Source: a virus (taxonomy: Duplodnaviria > Caudoviricetes). Taken from it: a stretch of DNA of 64,000 nt. Of the stretch, positions 28,435 through 36,668 are shown one piece after another (position 1 is the first letter of the stretch; each line of letters starts with the position of its first letter). The stretch spans positions 167,744 through 231,743 of IMG/VR virus record IMGVR_UViG_2595698668_000001. One strand, given 5' to 3'. The notes under the pieces are model-generated. The model ran no database searches, was not told the DNA's origin, and saw nothing but the letters and a program-made list of their open reading frames with translations. A program made the translations under genes and the position numbers.

Positions 28435-29424
28435 ATGGGTAGTTTTAATACTGTTTGTTCTGTTAGTCGTCAAATCGTTCAAGGTGGTGATAAAGTTCGC
28501 TTGATCCCAGTTGCTGGTAATCACTGTATTAGTGCTTTCCCACTAACTGCGGTGTATGACGATTATGGTGAGTTTGACATTGATGATAATCTTGCATTAG
28601 AATGCTTAATGAAAAACGTATCTATGTTTAACGATGGTGTCTCTAAAGAGAACTTAGCCCATGGGTTTTATCCATACGATGAAAATCGTTGGACAATTCC
28701 AGACCTATGGAACAAAACAAAACACGAGACTTCTTTTATTGTAGTAAAGTCTGATGTATATGATCTCGTCTCGGAGTTTGGTATTACTTGTTGGTGGGAG
28801 AAACCTGTATACGACGTTTCTGATGCAGATGACTGGCTACCGGTAACACCAGAACGAGTCGCTAGGCATCTTGAAACTCTCCAAGAAAGACTGAAAGAGT
28901 TGATCGAAGATAGTGAAGACCCAGAAGATGACATCCTTGTGAATCATGTTAAAATGATGATTGATAGTGTTCATATTGGTAATGCAAAACATTATAGACT
29001 TAACGAATTGATGAAAACCCAAGATCAGATTAATGATTATGCTCATCACGACGATACAACTTATGCAATTTTCAAAAATATTGAAGAATTTGCAAAATTA
29101 GAAAATTTTTATGCCGGTTGCAACAACTTGGATATTGTGTTAACATCACAGGAATATGGTCGTCAGACATGCAAACAGTTTGAAAAGGTTCGTATGATGA
29201 CAAAAATCCAGATTACTGGGTTTAACCAAACAGAAAAAATTCAGTTGACTCCGGTTGAGTGGGATGTTAAAATTCCTTACTCTATGGTTGTGGAATCAAC
29301 TAAACCCAATTGGTCAAATGAAGTTGATTTGATTCGAGTTGGCGACGGTCTTGAAATTACGGACTCTAAATACAATGAGTTCAAAGAGTATAAACACGAT
29401 GATGTCTATCTGAGTGAGAAATGA
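28435..29424 (+). CDS. Hypothetical protein
   Basis: Likely start MGSFNTVCSVSRQ; YDDYG motif; long ORF. Confidence 0.75.
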   Translation: MGSFNTVCSVSRQIVQGGDKVRLIPVAGNHCISAFPLTAVYDDYGEFDIDDNLALECLMKNVSMFNDGVSKENLAHGFYPYDENRWTIPDLWNKTKHETSFIVVKSDVYDLVSEFGITCWWEKPVYDVSDADDWLPVTPERVARHLETLQERLKELIEDSEDPEDDILVNHVKMMIDSVHIGNAKHYRLNELMKTQDQINDYAHHDDTTYAIFKNIEEFAKLENFYAGCNNLDIVLTSQEYGRQTCKQFEKVRMMTKIQITGFNQTEKIQLTPVEWDVKIPYSMVVESTKPNWSNEVDLIRVGDGLEITDSKYNEFKEYKHDDVYLSEK

Positions 29425-29674
29425 TATGATGGTTTTAGAAACAGAAAAAGTAAATTTAGCTGGAAGAATATACCCACTAGATATAGCAAACCAAATATGT
29501 TCTGTTCAACCTATAGATCCTGAGCCATTTCGAAAACTGTATGAGCGGGCTAAAGAGAACGAACGTATTAAGATTCGTCTTGCTAAAACCTTTATGGTCC
29601 CTGTATCGAGGATCGATGCATACTGCGTGGAAGCATATCGAATTGGTATAAAAGAAAGTAAAAATAAAAGTTAA
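29414..29674 (+). CDS. Hypothetical protein
   Basis: ORF overlapping the previous stop. Confidence 0.55.
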   Translation: MRNDMMVLETEKVNLAGRIYPLDIANQICSVQPIDPEPFRKLYERAKENERIKIRLAKTFMVPVSRIDAYCVEAYRIGIKESKNKS

Positions 29675-29711
29675 ACATTCTTTCTTGTTGTGATATGATG
29701 TTTATATAAAT
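29671..29711 (+). promoter_or_regulatory. tRNA promoter cassette, copy 1 (TTAAAC-17-TATGAT with extended TG)
   Basis: Near-identical cassette at 30828-30868; each sits directly before a tRNA. Confidence 0.7.
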
Positions 29712-29713
29712 GA

Positions 29714-29806
29714 GCGTGAGTGGCGAAGTTGGTTGAAACGCATCGGACTTAAAATCCGATACTGCATAATGGCACATCGTGGGTTCGATTCCCACCTCAC
29801 GCACCA
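29714..29806 (+). tRNA. tRNA-Leu(TAA)
   Basis: GCGTGAG/CTCACGC acceptor, loop CTTAAAA, long variable arm, GGTTCGATTCC, CCA. Confidence 0.93.
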
Positions 29807-29811
29807 AATAC

Positions 29812-29878
29812 GAGATGATAAACTCAAATTCCTTTTTGTTGAATGAGATTTTTGGACGTTATATGAGTTTATCATCTC
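29812..29878. repeat. 15-bp perfect inverted repeat
   Basis: GAGATGATAAACTCA ... TGAGTTTATCATCTC. Confidence 0.85.
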
Positions 29879-30042
29879 TCAAATTTAATATGAGAGGCTT
29901 AATATGAACGTATACATCAGAAATTACATGTGTGAAGTCCTTTGGGTTAGTATCTTCAACGAAGATCACTGTAAAGGTAAATGTGTTAAGATTATGCGTG
30001 GTAAACATTTGAAGCCTTTCTATCAAAAATCGAGATATTAAA

Positions 30043-30432
30043 ATGAAAGTGAAGCTTGGTGCCTATAACCTTAATGAAAAAAGTTCTTTGGTTAATACGA
30101 ACGGTATAAAATTCATTTTGAGTGAACAAGTTATAGATGAATTTTCTAAAAAACTACCTGTTCTAATCAATTTTGGTCAAAAATGTTTTAACATCGATAA
30201 TGTTAGAGATACACCCGATCCGGTTGGTATTCTAAATTCAGTAGAAACTTACAAGAAAGATAATATCATTATTGTTACTGGTGATGTAGAAATAACCAAT
30301 GGTAAAGTATATGATGTTCATGGATGTTTACCTTCTTTTTGTGTCAGAACTTTAACTAATCGTCATGGTGATACTTGCAAAGTTATCGAAATCATTGCAT
30401 GGGACGTGGAAATATATGAAGGTTTATCATGA
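30043..30432 (+). CDS. Hypothetical protein
   Basis: 129-aa ORF in the tRNA region. Confidence 0.6.
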   Translation: MKVKLGAYNLNEKSSLVNTNGIKFILSEQVIDEFSKKLPVLINFGQKCFNIDNVRDTPDPVGILNSVETYKKDNIIIVTGDVEITNGKVYDVHGCLPSFCVRTLTNRHGDTCKVIEIIAWDVEIYEGLS

Positions 30433-30824
30433 ATAAACGTGATATCCATCTCATTGGTATTAGTAAGTTTGTCAAGAAAGGTCTCACTGTTATTCAATCT
30501 AGTTTGATCTTCAAGCAAACAAGTGATGAATGGAAAAATCTCCATGATGTTGATGTGGACAAAATTTATTGCTATATTAACAATGATGGTAAGGATATCT
30601 ACGCAATTGGTAGACTCAAATCCTGTTGTGGGCCTTGGTTGAGTGTTAGTTGTCGTTCTCTTCGTAAAAAAGGTTATATAGCATTTGACTTTAACGATGA
30701 AATTGAGATACCATATGGTTCTGGGATGAAAACTGCTTATAGGGTGTTGTTTTCTGATACCCCTAAATACGAGTATGAAGAAGCCAGACATCCAGTCGCT
30801 TACTTCGAAAAATACTTCAAATAA
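30429..30824 (+). CDS. Hypothetical protein
   Basis: 131-aa ORF with ATGA overlap. Confidence 0.6.
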   Translation: MNKRDIHLIGISKFVKKGLTVIQSSLIFKQTSDEWKNLHDVDVDKIYCYINNDGKDIYAIGRLKSCCGPWLSVSCRSLRKKGYIAFDFNDEIEIPYGSGMKTAYRVLFSDTPKYEYEEARHPVAYFEKYFK

Positions 30825-30827
30825 AAG

Positions 30828-30868
30828 TTAAACATCCTTTCTAACTATGATATGATGTTTATATAAAT
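30828..30868 (+). promoter_or_regulatory. tRNA promoter cassette, copy 2
   Basis: TTAAAC-17-TATGAT, then GTTTATATAAAT identical to copy 1. Confidence 0.7.
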
Positions 30869-30869
30869 T

Positions 30870-30946
30870 GCGCTGTTAGCTCAGTTGGATAGAGCAACGT
30901 TCTTCTAAAGCGTGGGTCACTGGTTCGAATCCAGTACGGCGCACCA
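30870..30946 (+). tRNA. tRNA-Arg(TCT)
   Basis: Cloverleaf, loop CTTCTAA, GGTTCGAATCC, CCA. Confidence 0.95.
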
Positions 30947-31030
30947 CGGGATGTGGTGAAATTGGCAGACACACTAGATTTAGGTTCTAGCGCCATAGGC
31001 GTGACGGTTCGAGTCCGTCCATCCCGACCA
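30947..31030 (+). tRNA. tRNA-Leu(TAG)
   Basis: CGGGATG/CATCCCG acceptor, loop TTTAGGT, CCA. Confidence 0.93.
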
Positions 31031-31031
31031 A

Positions 31032-31107
31032 GCGGGTAAGGTGTTTATGGATACATGCAAGCCTTCCAAGTTTGAGTAGACCGGATCGTTACCGGCTACC
31101 CGCTCCA
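31032..31107 (+). tRNA. tRNA-Gly(TCC)
   Basis: GCGGGTA/TACCCGC acceptor, loop CTTCCAA, atypical T-loop ATCGTTA, TCCA end. Confidence 0.88.
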
Positions 31108-31118
31108 AAATTTAAAAT

Positions 31119-31188
31119 TGATGTGTTACAGCTATCAGCTCACCGTTGAAAAAATACGGATAAGTCGGCTCGACTAAAGAACATATCA
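31119..31188 (+). ncRNA. Small cloverleaf-like RNA candidate (non-canonical)
   Basis: TGATGTGTT/AACATATCA closing stem with three internal hairpins; no TTCG loop or CCA. Confidence 0.4.
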
Positions 31189-31191
31189 TTT

Positions 31192-31268
31192 GGCCCCTTA
31201 GCTCAGTTGGTTAGAGCAGCCGACTCATAATCGGTTGGTCACTGGTTCGAGTCCAGTAGGGGCCACCA
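31192..31268 (+). tRNA. tRNA-Ile2(CAT, lysidine type)
   Basis: GGCCCCT acceptor and overall sequence closely resemble E. coli ileX; loop CTCATAA. Confidence 0.88.
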
Positions 31269-31286
31269 GATAAAGGGAAACGTGAT

Positions 31287-31526
31287 ATGAAAATGGAATA
31301 TGTTGGTGATAACGGATTAAAGTCATTTGATGTAAATTCTCCAACCGAATTGATTTCATATAAACATATCGGGTTTTCTGATTGGGATATCGATATTATA
31401 TCGAATTCCATATCTAAACTATCTGTTATTTATTGGTCCGATACACCTCCTTGGATAAAAGAAAATAAGATATCATGGTGTGTTGATAAAGAACGGTTGA
31501 TAGATTATATTAATAAGAGCTGTTAA
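31287..31526 (+). CDS. Hypothetical protein
   Basis: 79-aa ORF between tRNAs. Confidence 0.5.
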   Translation: MKMEYVGDNGLKSFDVNSPTELISYKHIGFSDWDIDIISNSISKLSVIYWSDTPPWIKENKISWCVDKERLIDYINKSC

Positions 31527-31561
31527 GAGTTCCATAGCTCTCTAAATTATCAAAAGGGATG

Positions 31562-31628
31562 TTGATGCGCGTGTGTAGCCGGGTTATAATGACCAAGATT
31601 CATGAAGGGTGAAAGACCACCCTAAATA
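31562..31628 (+). promoter_or_regulatory. Tandem sigma70-type (TTGATG-17-TATAAT) and late (CTAAATA 31622-31628) promoters
   Basis: Exact 17-nt spacing; directly upstream of the Met-Asn-Tyr...Trp block. Confidence 0.55.
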
Positions 31629-31633
31629 TTCAT

Positions 31634-31711
31634 AGCGGGGTGGAGAAGTCAGGAGTTCTCACCAGACTCATTATCTGGAAATCGGTGGTTCAAATCCACC
31701 TCCCGCTTCCA
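31634..31711 (+). tRNA. tRNA-Met(CAT), atypical
   Basis: AGCGGGG/TCCCGCT acceptor, loop CTCATTA, GGTTCAAATCC, CCA. Confidence 0.85.
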
Positions 31712-31712
31712 A

Positions 31713-31789
31713 TGGCGTGTAACTCAGTAGGTTAGAGTGGCGGACTGTTAATCCGTATGTCGTGGGTTCGAATCCCACCTCGCCAGCCA
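31713..31789 (+). tRNA. tRNA-Asn(GTT)
   Basis: Loop CTGTTAA, GGTTCGAATCC, GCCA end. Confidence 0.92.
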
Positions 31790-31794
31790 ATTCT

Positions 31795-31885
31795 GGATGT
31801 TCGGCTACGATGGCGGTGTAGCGGCGGACTGTAAATCCGTTCCCTCTGGGTAAACAAGTTGGTTCGAATCCAACAGCATCCACCA
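31795..31885 (+). tRNA. tRNA-Tyr(GTA)
   Basis: Loop CTGTAAA, long variable arm, CCA. Confidence 0.92.
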
Positions 31886-31889
31886 AATA

Positions 31890-32038
31890 GAAGAAGTTAG
31901 AAGACGTTCTGATAAAATCCTCGGAGACGATGCCCCCTTGCGGTTTTAGACCGTTACGGATAAGCACGGGGTAATCCAAATCAACCATTATAGGGATGTG
32001 GTCATCTGGTATGCGAATACAGTTGGTTTGGAACTTTT
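31890..32038 (+). ncRNA. ~150-nt structured RNA candidate between tRNA-Tyr and tRNA-Pro
   Basis: Closing GAAGAAGTT/AACTTTTC; CCAAATCAAC/GTTGGTTTGG; TGCCCC/GGGGTA. Confidence 0.5.
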
Positions 32039-32114
32039 CGGTGATTAGCGCAGTTGGTAGCGCGTCTGGTTTGGGACCAGAGGGTCACAGGTTCGAGTCC
32101 TGTATCACCGACCA
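32039..32114 (+). tRNA. tRNA-Pro(TGG)
   Basis: CGGTGAT/ATCACCG acceptor, loop TTTGGGA, CCA. Confidence 0.95.
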
Positions 32115-32390
32115 CTTAGCACAAAGAACGGGTAATGACGTATGCCCCGGAATAAGCCAGCCATAGAGAATCTGGATATCCTGAAACGTGCCATTAGGTT
32201 TCAGGCGGGATTGGTAGTATAAAGACGATATGGTAACTACCCCTTGACAGGCAGGGTGAAACTTGAGGTAACAGTCCTTTACCAAACAACGAACAGATGG
32301 ACAAAAATCGGTTGAACGTCCTTCCTCCTTGTGATAGCATGTCAACCAAGGATATAATCACAGTCTAAGGATCCTGATTATATTCCGCCT
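32115..32390 (+). ncRNA. ~275-nt multi-hairpin RNA candidate between tRNA-Pro and tRNA-Thr
   Basis: CCTGAAAC/GTTTCAGG, GGTAGT/ACTACC, TCCTTG/CAAGGA, ATATAATCA/TGATTATAT, closing CGGAATA/TATTCCG; no sense ORF. Confidence 0.55.
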
Positions 32391-32466
32391 GCCGGGTTAG
32401 CTCAGTTGATAGAGCGACGGTCTTGTAATCCGTAGGTCGTGGGTTTGAGTCCCACACTCGGCTCCA
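32391..32466 (+). tRNA. tRNA-Thr(TGT)
   Basis: GCCGGGT/ACTCGGC acceptor, loop CTTGTAA, CCA. Confidence 0.9.
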
Positions 32467-32472
32467 AATTTT

Positions 32473-33020
32473 GGATTCTCGTCAATAGTCCGGTCTATGA
32501 GAATCGACGCTTTAAGTGGCCCACCGGTATTTGTAAAGAGTGACTGTCTCTAGTGGAAGCTAGAAAATAAAAACCGAACCCCGACCTCTCCCATTACTCA
32601 AATGGTGATGTAGGTTCCTTTCCTGTAATAAGGTTCCTGTCCGCGACGGGTAAAAGGTTACATAGGGAGTCTGCTTGTGAATGACCACTGATCCAAGCCA
32701 TCACATAAGCGCGTCTGTAATGACGTTAAATATAAAGGCTTAGATTCCCGAAAGGGCCTAAGCGTAAAAGAAGGAGCCAGCGAATTTATTTTCTGGTGTA
32801 CCGAGAAACTAGTATATTATTCCTTCCATATAATGTTATATGTTCTGGTTGATATACGTTAGGCGAAAAGGCTTAGATTATCCCTCTGGGATCCTAAGCG
32901 TAAAAGTAACGAGCAAGACCTTCTTGTAGGCTTAACTCATTGGGGTGTTTGAGGTTTACATGTGTGGGCTCGGGTAGCCAATGCTATTAAGTCCGGTGAT
33001 GGTGCGACCGGATCGATTCT
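32473..33020 (+). ncRNA. ~550-nt large structured RNA candidate between tRNA-Thr and tRNA-Trp
   Basis: No ORF of 60 aa or more; long-range AGAATCGA/TCGATTCT; duplicated AAAGGCTTAGATT-hairpin-CCTAAGCGTAAAAG module. Confidence 0.65.
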
Positions 33021-33095
33021 AGGGTGTTAGTATAGTGGTATTATGCCGGATTCCAAATCCGTGCGACTGGGGTTCGAATCCTCAACGCCCTGCCA
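33021..33095 (+). tRNA. tRNA-Trp(CCA)
   Basis: AGGGTGT/ACGCCCT acceptor, loop TTCCAAA, GCCA end. Confidence 0.9.
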
Positions 33096-33274
33096 ATTTA
33101 CGGAACCACAACAACAAGTATGTGCCTTGGTGGTTCGACCTGCTTTGCAGCCGCACATGAAGCTAAAACTTAAAAAGAGAGGTTGTATATGTCACCGCTA
33201 AACGCAAGCCGTTAGGACGTAAAGGTAAAAATAGTGTTTTTGTAAATGGTTATACCAATAGTGGTATTCCGGTT

Positions 33275-33511
33275 TTGTGTAATGTATTTTATCAGTTTGA
33301 AACAAATGGTATTCCGTTGGATATTCTGATAGAGAAATTTTATAATTCCGGTTATATTATTGATTGGGTTTCTTTCGTTAATGATGCTTTCAAGATCGGA
33401 TGGAAGAAAGAAACTGTAATAAAAAAGATAAAGTATGCATTTGATGATATTGAGATAAATGATTCAGATGAAATACTAAACCGAGTGATTAAATACATAG
33501 AAAGCCTGTAA
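33275..33511 (+). CDS. Hypothetical protein with AlaRS-like FETNGIPLD motif (start uncertain)
   Basis: Motif resembles AlaRS YDTYGFPLD; frame is open upstream to 33167 with no ATG. Confidence 0.55.
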   Translation: MCNVFYQFETNGIPLDILIEKFYNSGYIIDWVSFVNDAFKIGWKKETVIKKIKYAFDDIEINDSDEILNRVIKYIESL

Positions 33512-33521
33512 GGAACGATAT

Positions 33522-33773
33522 ATGGGTAAGACATTTCGTCGTAAAAATGAAAAACATCTGGACAGTTGGTATGGTGATGAACTTAAAGTGAATCGGGATC
33601 TGGGAGATAAATATCCTAGTTATCCAGAATCGGGTGTCAAAGATCGTTATAATACATTGAGTCGTCAAAGGGATCGTAAATTGAAACATGATATCATGCA
33701 TGGAAATCACGATGTTTTTGTTGATGATGATTACGAAATGAAAAAGGCTAACGCCGGTTATCAATATAGTTAA
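33522..33773 (+). CDS. Small hypothetical protein
   Basis: AAGGA RBS; MGKTFRRK start. Confidence 0.7.
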   Translation: MGKTFRRKNEKHLDSWYGDELKVNRDLGDKYPSYPESGVKDRYNTLSRQRDRKLKHDIMHGNHDVFVDDDYEMKKANAGYQYS

Positions 33774-35816: not shown

Positions 35817-36668
35817 ATGAAAATGAAATTTAGTGAATTCGTTCAATTGGAAGAAAAATTGATGGTATTCGGAAAGAAGGCATACCCTAAGTTTAACAAC
35901 GTCTTGATCTTGGCTGGTGGGGCCGGTTCAGGAAAGGGATTTGTTACTTCTAAACTAGTTGGTCTGGAAGGTATTACCCTAGACGTAGACCGTGTAAAAG
36001 AGCTTGCTATGGCATCCACAAAGCTCGCTGGACGCATTAAAGCAGAAACCGGACACGATATATCAAAGTTTGACTTGAAGAAGCCAGAAAACGTTTCTAC
36101 TCTGCATAACCTTCTATCTGATGTATACAAGACAACCAAGAACATGGATAAACGTGTTTTTAATGGTGTATTGGCTGCTCCGGAAGATCGTAAACCTAAT
36201 TTGATCTTCGACGTTACCCTTAAAGATATGGGTAAGATGGCTCAAATTGCAAAACAGGTTCGTGAACTTGGTTATAACAAGGAAAACGTTCATATCGTGT
36301 GGGTAATGAATGATATCAACGTTGCTATGAAACAAAACGCCGAACGTTCCCGTACTGTACCGGTTGAGATTCTTGTTGCAACTCATGAGGGTGCAAGTAT
36401 GACCTTCAAAAATCTAATGGCTATGGGTGAAGGTGCTCGGAGTTATGCCGATGGAGATTGGTATATTGCCTTCAATAAAATCGGGGTTGACTCTTCTATT
36501 GCTAAATCTGGTAAGGGTGGTTCTTATGTTAAAGAAGCAAACTACATCAGAGTGAAACAACAGGGCAAAGCTCCGATGAAAGCAACTGAACTTGATAAAC
36601 AGATTGTGAATAAGATTTCTGATTATATTCCAAACCCAGAAACATGGGCTATGGTAATGAAGAAATAA
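35817..36668 (+). CDS. P-loop kinase (AAA_33/zeta-toxin-like), late expressed
   Basis: ILAGGAGSGKG, LIFDVT, QNAERSRTVP lid; CTAAATA at 35780-35786. Confidence 0.8.
   Translation: MKMKFSEFVQLEEKLMVFGKKAYPKFNNVLILAGGAGSGKGFVTSKLVGLEGITLDVDRVKELAMASTKLAGRIKAETGHDISKFDLKKPENVSTLHNLLSDVYKTTKNMDKRVFNGVLAAPEDRKPNLIFDVTLKDMGKMAQIAKQVRELGYNKENVHIVWVMNDINVAMKQNAERSRTVPVEILVATHEGASMTFKNLMAMGEGARSYADGDWYIAFNKIGVDSSIAKSGKGGSYVKEANYIRVKQQGKAPMKATELDKQIVNKISDYIPNPETWAMVMKK

What the first reader, a model, noticed from the sequence alone, without database searches (positions are those of the whole stretch)
32473..33020. ~550-nt ornate non-coding RNA between tRNA-Thr and tRNA-Trp, with a duplicated structural module
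Seen: about 550 nt with no ORF of 60 aa or more, in an otherwise gene-dense genome, filling the whole gap between two tRNAs. A long-range helix can close it: AGAATCGA 32500-32507 with TCGATTCT 33013-33020, competing with local GATTCTC 32474-32480. Many local stems are visible (ATAG/CTAT with loop TCCGGT able to pair with ACCGG, TCTAG/CTAGA, GCTTGTGA/TCACATAAGC, TCCGGT/ACCGGA). The module AAAGGCTTAGATT-[hairpin]-CCTAAGCGTAAAAG occurs twice (32734-32770, 32867-32906) with identical flanks but different, still paired apical stems (CCC-GAAA-GGG versus ATCCC-TCT-GGGAT), which is what structural selection would leave. Established: large phage ncRNAs such as GOLLD and ROOL lie beside tRNA genes, and T4 has small stable RNAs C and D in its tRNA cluster. 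Inference: a large RNA released by tRNA processing, possibly a new class, whose repeated module may bind protein or mediate multimerisation.
Basis: partly seen in the sequence, partly recalled or inferred. Interest (0 to 1): 0.82.

Follow-up and report, generated by a model that had tools for sequence, protein, structure and literature searches.

The report
Chain of folded RNA cassettes between tRNAs
The 554-base gap between two phage tRNA genes is not one giant RNA but a string of separately inherited small folded RNAs, and one of them belongs to an uncatalogued RNA family that is also present in phage T4 and more than a thousand other phage genomes.

Summary
There is a 554-nt ORF-poor gap between tRNA-Thr and tRNA-Trp in an Aeromonas T4-like phage, it carries the duplicated hairpin module, and it has no Rfam match.

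The reading as one ornate ~550-nt RNA does not hold. Eleven aligned phages show a mosaic of cassettes that come and go independently:
- A: 32467-32545
- B: 32569-32667, plus hairpins to 32733
- C: 32734-32770
- D: 32907-33020

The second module copy arrived with a 136-nt insertion (32771-32906) that no readable relative has. The proposed closing helix is broken in 4 of 11 phages without compensation.

RNA structure itself is well supported by covariation. B is a doubly pseudoknotted ~100-nt RNA. A model of B also detects copies in T5-like Aeromonas phages, Cronobacter/Citrobacter phages and T-even phages (downstream of denV, upstream of vs.8). Blastn with the T4 copy matches 1049 phage records. 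Earlier agents of this scan found that T-even RNA on other DNA (e1-180401, e1-142854). New here is its presence inside tRNA operons of a phage with no vs.8 homologue.

Function is unknown. My best guess is small stable RNAs cut from the tRNA precursor, like T4 RNA C/D.

The parts
32329..32358 (+). Sigma-70-like promoter match (TTGTGA-18-TATAAT, 10 of 12) just upstream of tRNA-Thr. It is a candidate start of the Thr-spacer-Trp transcript.
   Evidence: Consensus scan only. The scan found 22 sites in 29400-33700 against 13.3 +/- 3.7 in shuffles, so function is inferred, not shown.
32391..32466 (+). tRNA-Thr (TGT), the 5' border of the spacer.
   Evidence: ARAGORN; Rfam tRNA at 66.1 bits.
32467..32545 (+). 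Cassette A, an H-type pseudoknot. Outer stem 32474-32480/32499-32505; inner stem 32485-32488/32495-32498; hairpin loop 32490-32494 pairs with 32523-32527. The linker GACGCTTTAAGTRGCC (32506-32521) is nearly invariant.
   Evidence: Alignment A4 of 8 distinct sequences of 4 types. 91.4% of cells pair against 72.4% in shuffles (0/500). Covariation score is 0.54 against 0.20 (0/500) and at most 0.19 when slid. The pseudoknot helix is paired in 100% of cells, with 4 of 5 pairs changed on both sides. In the T5-like contig L075 the cassette sits as an insertion directly behind a B copy. Model R2 finds one good copy in the window's own genome and none in T5, Aeh1, 44RR2.8t, T4 or AhSzw-1.
32569..32667 (+). 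Cassette B core, a doubly pseudoknotted RNA of about 100 nt. Helix a 32572-32575/32613-32616; b 32580-32582/32665-32667; d 32584-32585/32610-32611; variable hairpin c 32591-32594/32602-32605; e 32617-32621/32653-32657; f 32622-32624/32631-32633; g 32636-32641/32645-32649. CCTCT (32585-32589), the f loop GTAATA and the tail TTACAT are conserved.
   Evidence: 16 sequences (A2): 95.2% paired against 86.2% in shuffles (0/500); 10 pairs change on both sides (3/500); covariation 0.239 against 0.091. Helix a is complementary in 16 of 16. On 40 matches (A5), helix a, which the model does not contain, shows GC:19 CG:10 AU:5 GU:1 at one pair and CG:16 GC:11 AU:6 at another. Overall covariation is 0.483 against 0.170 (0/500). 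There is one copy in the own genome.
32668..32733 (+). Two lineage-specific hairpins that follow the B core. They are shared with the ceceduoviruses, ZPAH1 and Aswh_1 but not with the T5-like or Nanhuvirus copies.
   Evidence: Alignments; fold z = -2.09, with 4 of 200 shuffles as good.
32734..32770 (+). Cassette C, copy 1: hairpin GCTTAG-ATT-CCC-GAAA-GGG-C-CTAAGC with flanks AAAGG and GTAAAAG. This copy has the apical stem seen in relatives.
   Evidence: Fold z = -2.54. The stem is kept and the loops vary among relatives.
32771..32906 (+). 136-nt insertion. It consists of 96 nt with no known relative (32771-32866) plus a second C hairpin (32867-32906) with apical stem ATCCC-TCT-GGGAT. None of the readable relatives has it.
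   Evidence: Absent from the 9 of 10 aligned relatives that can be read here; the tenth, Assk, has 84 N at this spot. Blastn of 32765-32870 against the phage collection gave 1 irrelevant 25-nt match. DNA contigs of runs X1 and X3, from two studies, span 32300-33191 in one piece with the insertion, although one of them may be the source sample.
32907..33020 (+). Cassette D, a multi-hairpin RNA ending in hairpin 32991-32997/33007-33013 (loop TGATGGTGCGA) and tail ATCGATTCT, which abuts tRNA-Trp.
   Evidence: RNAalifold on 9 sequences gives 43 pairs, 4 with changes on both sides. Counted, 99% pair against 97.1% in shuffles, and covariation is 0.156 against 0.118 (0/500), but the count of double-change pairs is reached by 119/500 shuffles. 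The last hairpin shows C-G, U-G and U-A variants. Its loop and tail are kept before tRNA-Trp in the distant phage 44RR2.8t.
33021..33095 (+). tRNA-Trp (CCA), the 3' border. It is precisely absent in Asswx_1, Aszh-1, AS-sw and G2, and ARAGORN does not call it in Assk or AS-szw.

Best explanation
The Thr-Trp spacer is a chain of at least four RNA cassettes (A, B, C, D) that fold on their own and are inherited separately, plus one lineage-specific insertion. All are transcribed on the tRNA strand as part of a polycistronic tRNA precursor.

**Shown**
- The cassettes assort independently among related phages and even between phage families.
- A and B have covarying, pseudoknotted folds.
- The G-U pairs fit only the + strand.
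- B is the Aeromonas-phage branch of a widespread uncatalogued phage RNA family that in T-even phages lies downstream of denV and upstream of vs.8.

**Inferred**
- RNase P cutting at the 5' end of tRNA-Trp and 3' processing of tRNA-Thr release the spacer.
- The A/U-rich single-stranded linkers between cassettes (AATTTT, TATTTGTAAAG, AAAATAAAAA, TTAAATATAAAG, GTAAAAG) are cut by RNase E-type enzymes.
- The compact pseudoknotted cassettes survive as small stable RNAs of about 80-170 nt, as T4 RNA C/D and T5 RNAI/RNAIII do.
- Because the window's genome has no vs.8 homologue, B probably acts as an RNA in its own right (protein or RNA binding, or catalysis) and not only as a leader for vs.8.
For: **Mosaic**
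- Blastn of the window against 12 loci and the 11-sequence alignment show A+C+D without B in phage 65 and avDM6. ZPAH1 and Aswh_1 carry an A variant plus B, C and D. The insertion is seen only in the window.
- The B core alone occurs in T5-like Shenzhenvirus phages, in Ahp1 and in Citrobacter/Cronobacter phages, in or at the head of tRNA clusters and on the tRNA strand.
- In L075 an A cassette lies directly after B, at a place where AhSzw-1 has 4 nt.

**Structure**
- Counts.
- Helix a was not in the model yet covaries in the newly found sequences: AAAGG/CCTTT, AAAGC/GCTTT, AAAGA/TCTTT and T4 GGGAA/TTCCC.

**Strand**
- Many G-U pairs occur on the + strand, for example GU:9 at three D pairs and UG:4 in B helix g.

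**Family spread**
- Model R1 scores 41.8-53.9 bits at 22 places in T4-like and other large phage contigs.
- Blastn with the T4 copy matches 1049 records.
- denV is found beside 18 of 26 loci, and denV or lysozyme beside 21 of 26.
- No vs.8 homologue was found in the own genome.

**Precedent**
- T4 rnaC and rnaD, and T5 rnaI, rnaIII and rna1, are annotated stable RNAs inside tRNA clusters.
- Their function is still unknown (passages of PMC9697503).

**Weak hint of RNA**
- A 210-nt contig of a metatranscriptome run covers 32522-32731 with 1 difference.
Against: - No RNA ends, processing sites or stable species are shown. All laid runs are contigs, and RNA libraries can contain DNA.
- The promoter is a consensus match only.
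- Folding energies of A, B and D are no better than shuffles (z -0.3 to -0.6). Nested folding cannot score pseudoknots, so this is not decisive.
- The structures were derived from the same sequences they were counted on, and the sequences are related, so the shuffle controls overstate significance. Helix a in A5 is the only truly held-out test.
- Support for D is modest.
- In Citrobacter/Cronobacter phages, B lies upstream of an early-type promoter that I read by eye in front of the tRNAs. There it may belong to the upstream transcript, so co-transcription with tRNAs is not universal.
- In T-even phages B sits like a 5' leader of vs.8, which would fit a cis-regulatory role.
Confidence: 0.6

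Rival explanations
1. One reading: one ornate ~550-nt RNA closed by a long-range helix, with the repeated module as a repeated functional unit (protein binding or multimerisation), comparable to GOLLD or ROOL.
For: The 8-nt closing complement exists and is perfect in 4 of 11 phages. The whole-gap MFE uses it. The module occurs twice with paired apical stems.
Against: The parts are inherited separately. The closing helix has 2-4 uncompensated mismatches in 4 of 11 phages, while the competing local stem covaries. The second module is seen only in this lineage's insertion. There is no GOLLD, ROOL or other Rfam match at E<=10. Whole-gap z is -1.79.
Confidence: 0.08
2. The cassettes work only in cis on the precursor. 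They would act as folding insulators between tRNAs, as roadblocks to 3'-5' exonucleases, or as guides that present the A/U-rich RNase E sites. They would have no function once released. In T-even phages the B family would be a leader that controls vs.8.
For: Cassette A starts 7-8 nt after the tRNA 3' end in three lineages: after Thr in ceceduoviruses, and after Asp in phage 65 and avDM6. A/U-rich linkers flank every cassette. B lies 60-90 nt upstream of the vs.8 start in most T-even copies.
Against: B keeps about 60 nearly invariant bases and the same fold in phages where it has no nearby tRNA (T-even) and in phages with no vs.8 (window genome). No single cis target explains that. A simple insulator would not need invariant unpaired motifs such as CCTCT, GTAATA, TTACAT, or the 16-nt linker of A.
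Confidence: 0.22
3. B and its family are a self-cleaving ribozyme with the nested double-pseudoknot topology of HDV-like ribozymes. It would cut at its 5' edge and so help to process tRNA or mRNA precursors.
For: The order of strands (a, b, hairpin c/d, a', a three-way domain e/f/g, then b') is the P1-P2-P3-P1'-P4-P2' order. Sequence conservation begins abruptly at the 5' strand of helix a. HDV-like theta ribozymes do occur beside phage tRNAs (PMC10879173, section 7 read).
Against: The P1-equivalent is only 4-6 bp and the P2-equivalent 3-5 bp. The first base of the J4/2-equivalent is U, not the catalytic C that the paper requires. B is not within 5 nt of a tRNA 3' end. No HDV-type or other ribozyme family of Rfam matches at E<=10. 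The P4-equivalent is the most conserved part. By my recollection P4 is variable in HDV-like ribozymes, so this would be unusual for one.
Confidence: 0.06
4. The conserved pieces are DNA-level features (recombination scars, homing-endonuclease targets, promoters) or decayed tRNA genes, and not functional RNAs.
For: tRNA clusters of these phages are plastic. tRNA-Trp comes and goes precisely. Homing or HNH endonuclease genes lie in the clusters of P19 and ZPAH1. In Ci1, the B core reads by eye as a -35/-10-like pair.
Against: Compensatory changes in at least 7 helices, including two pseudoknots, together with strand-specific G-U pairs, indicate selection on RNA pairing. The tRNA model gives no match in the gap even at E<=10. 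The promoter-like reading is not kept in the Aeromonas copies.
Confidence: 0.04

Closest known systems
Unnamed structured RNA upstream of T4 vs.8 (between denV and vs.8), reported by earlier agents of this scan (e1-180401, e1-142854); not in Rfam 15
   Same: Cassette B is detected by the same covariance model: 128.8 bits for the window, 41.8-53.9 bits for T-even-type copies and 21.3 bits for T4 itself. They share helices a, b, e, f and g, the invariant CCTGTAATAAGG hairpin and the CCTCT motif.
   Different: In the window it lies inside a tRNA operon, and the genome has no vs.8 homologue. It lacks the 3' GCCA-AGGAA-TGGC hairpin of the T-even copies. Hairpins c and g differ in detail.
Phage T4 stable RNAs C and D (rnaC, rnaD; species 1 and 2) and phage T5 RNAI, RNAIII and RNA1
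   Same: These are non-tRNA RNAs of about 105-145 nt that lie between or after tRNA genes on the tRNA strand of large virulent phages, with unknown function (annotations; PMC9697503 passages). In phage 65 the A+C+D block is the last element of the tRNA cluster, as rnaD-rnaC is in T4.
   Different: I found no sequence or model similarity. R1 and R2 find nothing in the T4 or T5 tRNA regions. Stability and processing of the Aeromonas cassettes are untested.
HDV-like / theta ribozymes next to phage tRNAs
   Same: The context is a phage tRNA neighbourhood. B has a nested double-pseudoknot strand order.
   Different: Helices are short, there is no C at the first J4/2 position, B does not abut a tRNA 3' end, and no Rfam HDV-type match appears.
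GOLLD and ROOL large ornate RNAs
   Same: They are non-coding, phage-associated and often near tRNAs.
   Different: There is no Rfam match at E<=10. The region is not one conserved unit but separable cassettes of 40-170 nt.

Membership tests
GOLLD / ROOL / any Rfam 15 family other than tRNA | Match to the family covariance model | tested here: not met
   No match in 32467-33020 at gathering score or at E<=10. Also none for the T4 copy or for three T-even-type loci at E<=1.
vs.8-upstream RNA family of T-even and other virulent phages (uncatalogued) | Shared sequence and structure model, with the same helices kept by covariation | tested here: met
   R1 hits. Pair counts on 40 matches are. Helix a, which the model does not contain, covaries.
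vs.8-upstream RNA family of T-even and other virulent phages (uncatalogued) | Position downstream of denV/lysozyme and upstream of a vs.8-type P-loop gene | tested here: not met
   The window copy lies between tRNA genes. No vs.8 homologue was found in the 231,743-bp genome. denV is found beside 18 of 26 other loci.
T4 RNA C/D and T5 RNAI/RNAIII-type stable RNAs of tRNA clusters | Non-tRNA RNA gene within a phage tRNA cluster, on the tRNA strand | tested here: met
   Strand is set by G-U pairs.
T4 RNA C/D and T5 RNAI/RNAIII-type stable RNAs of tRNA clusters | Homology to rnaC, rnaD, rnaI, rnaIII or rna1 | tested here: not met
   R1 and R2 give no match in the T4 and T5 records except the T4 denV-vs.8 site. 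Blastn of the gap found no T4 or T5 match among 24 records.
T4 RNA C/D and T5 RNAI/RNAIII-type stable RNAs of tRNA clusters | Accumulates as a discrete stable RNA processed from the tRNA precursor | not testable with these tools
   Only contigs of public runs were available, and they show no ends.
HDV-like / theta ribozyme | Catalytic cytosine at the first position of J4/2 (PMC10879173, section 7) | tested here: not met
   The junction after helix e begins with T. TTACAT is invariant in 16 of 16, set against the criterion read.
HDV-like / theta ribozyme | Cleavage site within 5 nt of a tRNA 3' end (tRNA-associated theta ribozymes) | tested here: not met
   The B core starts 103 nt after tRNA-Thr in the window. 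It is not adjacent to a tRNA in the other phages either.
HDV-like / theta ribozyme | Nested double-pseudoknot strand order | tested here: inconclusive
   The order a-b-c/d-a'-e/f/g-b' fits, but the helices are only 3-6 bp and a P1.1 equivalent was not identified.
tRNA or decayed tRNA gene | Match to the tRNA model or an ARAGORN call | tested here: not met
   No ARAGORN gene and no RF00005 match at E<=10 inside the gap.

The most novel reading that the evidence does not exclude
tRNA operons of large virulent Aeromonas phages may carry arrays of small pseudoknotted RNA cassettes that fold on their own and move as units between unrelated phage families (Straboviridae and Demerecviridae). One of them, B, would belong to a trans-acting or catalytic RNA class shared by more than a thousand virulent phages, T4 included, and still uncatalogued. 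On this reading, the old puzzle of stable RNAs of unknown function in T4 and T5 tRNA clusters would be one face of a general, mobile RNA toolkit.
Probability: 0.3. Interest if true: 0.8.

Novelty: new variant of a known kind. Interest (0 to 1): 0.62.

Why it matters
T4 and T5 have carried "stable RNAs of unknown function" in their tRNA clusters since the 1970s, and nobody knows what they do. This window shows that such spacers can be built from discrete, separately exchangeable folded RNAs.

It also ties one of them, by model and by covariation, to a conserved RNA that sits unannotated in T4 (under an over-long vs.8 annotation) and in about a thousand other phage genomes.

Finding the same RNA inside tRNA operons of phages that lack vs.8 argues that it is more than a leader of that gene. 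It also offers a natural experiment, with two genomic contexts for one fold, for working out its function. Cassette A adds a second, narrowly distributed pseudoknot with a 16-nt conserved linker that can be tested directly.

Tried and rejected
**Searches that added little**
- A strict core pattern in IMG/VR found only 2 loci.
- A looser pattern found 4 viral, 6 metagenome and 2 genome loci. Only L018, L019, L023, L026, L030 and L075 proved real.
- The A-linker 16-mer pattern gave 42 IMG/VR loci, and all but L019 were chance matches in unrelated contexts without tRNAs. That scan was wasted.
- The C pattern gave only 2 known phages.
- Blastn of the insert found nothing.
- Pfam on 7 neighbouring ORFs gave no family.

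**Readings considered and dropped**
- Small ORFs in the gap. A 5-nt indel and other indels inside hairpin c break any frame. An 8-codon ORF seen by eye in ZPAH1-type copies stops after 3 codons in the window.
- B as a promoter. A -35/-10-like pair is seen by eye only in the Ci1/Cronobacter copies.
- A T-arm reading of GGTTCC... in B, rejected because covariation supports hairpin g instead.
- A link between B and the window's P-loop ORF at 35817-36668. It has no similarity to T4 vs.8 (E = 0.77).
- Resemblance of A and C to pistol ribozymes. This rests on my recollection only. Rfam's models gave nothing at E<=10, so I make no claim.

**Evidence not used**
- Assk's apparent two C copies flank a run of 84 N.
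- Depth in RNA-library contigs (X11: 444-467 over 32610-32671, against 0-14 in the bins on either side) sums several organisms. The library is probably DNA, so it is at most a hint.
- Small-share runs were not used to name a habitat.

**Literature**
- Six full-text searches turned up no description of cassettes A or B or of the denV-vs.8 RNA.
- I read passages of PMC10879173 (plus its section 7), PMC10690425 and PMC9697503.
- Supplementary tables of PMC10690425 (10,006 candidate viral RNAs) were closed and might list these motifs.
Full report
**What the window is.** The window is the last 64 kb of a 231,743-bp virus record. Its closest public relatives are Aeromonas T4-like phages of the Straboviridae subfamily Emmerichvirinae, genus Ceceduovirus, such as P19 and AS-szw (89-94% identity over the query; taxonomy). 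Phage 65 and other Ishigurovirus phages are further away.

The finding lies in a cluster of 11 tRNA genes, all on the + strand, at 29714-33095. Several sub-clusters are preceded by sigma-70-like promoter matches. One of them, TTGTGA-18-TATAAT at 32329-32358, lies in front of tRNA-Thr. No terminator-like site lies in the gap.

**Check of the observation.**
- The gap between tRNA-Thr (32391-32466) and tRNA-Trp (33021-33095) is 554 nt.
- Its longest ORFs are 42 and 36 aa on the minus strand.
- The stems, the 8-nt long-range complement and the duplicated module are in the sequence as described.
- The module pattern occurs twice in 64 kb where 0.01 is expected.
- Rfam 15 gives only tRNAs at gathering score, and nothing inside the gap at E<=10.
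- Folding energy is weak evidence. The whole gap scores z = -1.79, with 5 of 100 shuffles as good.
- Piece by piece, only the simple hairpins stand out (z -2.1, -2.5, -3.05). Cassettes A, B, D and the insert score z -0.3 to -0.9.

**The gap is a mosaic.** I fetched the homologous regions of 12 public phage records, compared them by blastn and aligned 10 relatives with the window. I call the parts A (32467-32545), B (32569-32733), C (32734-32770) and D (32907-33020).
- Seven ceceduoviruses have A-B-C-D with a single C. Six were in the alignment, and the seventh, Aszh-1, was compared only by blastn.
- Phage 65 and avDM6 have A-C-D without B, placed after tRNA-Asp instead of tRNA-Thr.
- ZPAH1 and Aswh_1 have a differently sequenced A, then B-C-D.
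- tRNA-Trp is present in P19, ZPAH1 and Aswh_1.
- tRNA-Trp is cleanly absent in Asswx_1, Aszh-1, AS-sw and G2. ARAGORN does not call it in Assk or AS-szw.

The stretch 32771-32906 is missing from 9 of the 10 aligned relatives. The tenth, Assk, has 84 N at that spot and cannot be read. So the second module copy came in with a 136-nt insertion. The insertion's first 96 nt have no relative in the phage collection.

The insertion is not an assembly artefact of this record. DNA contigs of two runs from two studies cover 32300-33191 in one piece with 4-8 differences, although one of them may be the source sample.

**The closing helix.** AGAATCGA/TCGATTCT is perfect in 4 of 11 phages. It has one mismatch and one wobble in 3, and 2-4 mismatches with no compensating change in 4. 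The competing local stem GATTCTC/GAGAATC does change in a compensatory way: T-A becomes C-G in phage 65 and avDM6, and two pairs swap in L075. I therefore reject the single closed 550-nt RNA.

**Cassette A.** Four sequence types are known:
- ceceduovirus;
- phage 65/avDM6;
- ZPAH1/Aswh_1;
- a T5-like contig, L075. It is labelled as a Phocaeicola MAG but carries 23 tRNAs in a T5-like order.

All four keep an outer stem and an inner stem. All four also keep a pairing between the hairpin loop and a stretch 29 nt downstream of the stem. That pairing reads CCGGT/ACCGG in the window, CGCCT/AGGCG in L075 and CGCA(C)/(G)TGCG in ZPAH1.

On the ungapped 8-sequence alignment the pseudoknot is paired in every cell, and 4 of its 5 pairs change on both sides. 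The whole structure pairs in 91.4% of cells against 72.4% in shuffles (0/500). Its covariation score is 0.54 against 0.20, and at most 0.19 when the partners are slid.

The 16-nt linker GACGCTTTAAGTRGCC is nearly invariant.

In L075 the cassette lies directly behind a B copy, where AhSzw-1 has only 4 nt, so it behaves as a separable unit. A model of A finds one good copy in the own genome and none in T5, Aeh1, 44RR2.8t, T4 or AhSzw-1.

**Cassette B.** Blastn showed that window bases 32566-32664 are 84-85% identical to sequences in three T5-like Aeromonas phages (Shenzhenvirus). Shorter pieces of the same core are 85-89% identical to the straboviruses Ahp1_CNU-2021 and Citrobacter phage Ci1. 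A second blastn, with the Ci1 copy as query, added Cronobacter phages LPCS28 and S13. In all of these, the element lies in or at the head of a tRNA cluster, on the tRNA strand.

On 16 distinct sequences, RNAalifold found a covarying long-range helix b and hairpin g. Reading the alignment added:
- helix a, AA[C/G]C with G[G/C]TT, complementary in 16 of 16;
- helix d;
- the variable hairpin c;
- helix e, where C-G becomes T-A in the Cronobacter/Citrobacter branch.

Counted together, 95.2% of cells pair against 86.2% in shuffles (0/500). Ten pairs change on both sides (3/500). The covariation score is 0.239 against 0.091, and at most 0.10 when slid. Helices a and b cross, so the fold is a pseudoknot. 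The strand order is a, b, c/d hairpin, a', e/f/g three-way domain, b'.

**B belongs to a large family.**
- A covariance model without helix a (R1) found one copy per genome among the known members. It found nothing in T5, Aeh1 or 44RR2.8t. It gave only three weak matches in phage 65 (E = 0.24 to 4.1), which I take as noise.
- In T4 it gave a weak match (21.3 bits) at 64842-64941 on the minus strand.
- That site starts at the denV stop codon and lies under the annotated 5' end of vs.8.
- Blastn with this T4 stretch matches 1049 phage records: Escherichia 646, Klebsiella 141, Shigella 81 and others, including Vequintavirus phages of about 136 kb.
- In Citrobacter phage Merlin the element lies in a 191-nt gap after denV.
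- In MaxTheCat it lies in a 249-nt gap about 600 nt before a tRNA cluster.
- A pattern scan of IMG/VR gave 66 loci. Across 67 sources, R1 gave 30 matches at E<=1, 22 of them at 41.8-53.9 bits.

On the 40-row model-fitted alignment A5, helix a serves as a held-out test, because the model does not contain it. Its pairs read GC:19 CG:10 AU:5 GU:1 and CG:16 GC:11 AU:6. The unpaired cells come mostly from a one-column shift of the T5-like rows. T4 itself has GGGAA/TTCCC there.

Overall, 90.6% of cells pair against 71.0% in shuffles, and covariation is 0.483 against 0.170 (0/500). No Rfam family matches the T4 copy or three T-even-type loci.

In T-even-type genomes the element follows lysozyme and denV: denV is found beside 18 of 26 loci, and either gene beside 21 of 26. 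There it is followed by a conserved hairpin and then, in most, by the conserved start of the vs.8 gene (MKTFLTG...). This implies that the T4 vs.8 annotation starts about 40 codons too early.

The window's genome has no vs.8 homologue.

After I reached this point, a look-up showed that earlier agents of this scan had described the same T-even RNA on other genomes (e1-180401, e1-142854). My result agrees with theirs. It adds the tRNA-operon branch and the pseudoknot helix a.

**Cassettes C and D.** The C stem GCTTAG/CTAAGC and its CCC/GGG top are kept in all relatives. The loops differ: GAAA, GTAA, ATAA, TTTCTCA, and TCT in the longer top of copy 2.

D folds into a multi-hairpin structure of 43 predicted pairs, 4 with changes on both sides. 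The controls are only modestly exceeded: covariation is 0.156 against 0.118 (0/500), but the count of double-change pairs is reached by 119/500 shuffles.

D's last hairpin shows C-G, T-G and T-A variants. Its loop ATGGTGCG and tail ATCGATT are kept in front of tRNA-Trp even in the distant Biquartavirus 44RR2.8t.

**Strand and coding.** G-U pairs are frequent on the + strand and would be A-C mismatches on the other strand. Indels in hairpin c and elsewhere rule out a conserved ORF.

**How it most likely works.**
- Shown: separable cassettes, covarying folds, the tRNA strand, and family membership of B.
- Inferred: the gap is transcribed with the tRNAs from the promoter-like site at 32329-32358. 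It is released by RNase P at 33020/33021 and by 3' processing of tRNA-Thr. It is then cut in the A/U-rich linkers that separate the cassettes. The compact cassettes persist as small stable RNAs.

This is what T4 does with RNA C and D and T5 with RNAI, RNAIII and RNA1. All are annotated inside their tRNA clusters and their function is still unknown (PMC9697503 passages).

The one direct hint of RNA is a 210-nt contig from a wastewater metatranscriptome that covers 32522-32731 with one difference. A second contig from the same run carries a new B variant whose helix b again pairs. DNA carry-over cannot be excluded.

**What B is not.** By the criteria in PMC10879173 (section 7 read), theta/HDV-like ribozymes have a catalytic C at the first J4/2 position and cut within 5 nt of a tRNA 3' end. 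B has T at that position and is not adjacent to a tRNA, so it is not a member, although its strand order is the same. Self-cleavage remains a minor, testable possibility.

**Verdict.** The sequence features are real. The single ornate RNA is not. The region is a chain of folded RNA cassettes. One cassette (A) is a new, narrowly distributed pseudoknot. Another (B) is a new-context member of a widespread, uncatalogued phage RNA family.

Noticed in passing
L079:1451-1600 (-) = T4 NC_000866 about 64792-64941; L083: The annotated start of T4 vs.8 (219 aa) lies inside the conserved RNA. The start conserved among relatives (MRTFLTG... / MKTFLTG...) is about 40 codons downstream, so the T4 annotation looks over-extended. 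The old entry X04567 already lists alternative starts of 203 and 190 aa.
   Followed up: partly
window 33021-33095 and loci L005-L010: tRNA-Trp is cleanly absent in Asswx_1, Aszh-1, AS-sw and G2 (window 33018 joins 33096). ARAGORN does not call it in Assk or AS-szw, although most of its sequence aligns there. This is a tRNA gene caught being lost within one genus.
   Followed up: partly
L075 (4926-nt contig labelled as a Phocaeicola MAG): The contig carries 23 tRNA genes on one strand, among them one with anticodon CTA, plus B and A cassettes in a T5-like order. It looks like a phage fragment binned into a bacterial MAG.
   Followed up: partly
L117:8965-9195: One 172-kb T4-like contig has two B-family copies in tandem directly after denV. 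The second copy has a much reduced hairpin c.
   Followed up: no
window 32115-32390: The 276-nt spacer between tRNA-Pro and tRNA-Thr has no ORF of 60 aa on the tRNA strand; its longest ORF is 86 aa on the opposite strand. Its last 90 nt, from about 32300, align with the ceceduovirus relatives together with cassettes A and B. An earlier first-reader note (e1-6201261) flags it as a second structured RNA. I did not analyse it.
   Followed up: no
L078:187-531 (phage 44RR2.8t): The same Thr-then-Trp arrangement has a 345-nt spacer. It seems to hold a small ORF with a hydrophobic product, followed by the conserved last hairpin of cassette D.
   Followed up: no
L005:471-589 and 1975-2058 (Assk, record marked UNVERIFIED): There are two runs of N (119 and 84). 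The second lies between two identical C+D-start copies, exactly where the window has its insertion. The record cannot show whether Assk shares the insertion.
   Followed up: no
L020:1327-1540 (Cronobacter phage LPCS28): The roughly 210 nt between the lysozyme-like gene and the B element contain a repeated GAAAATTGGGG-type motif and look like an unannotated small ORF or repeat array.
   Followed up: no
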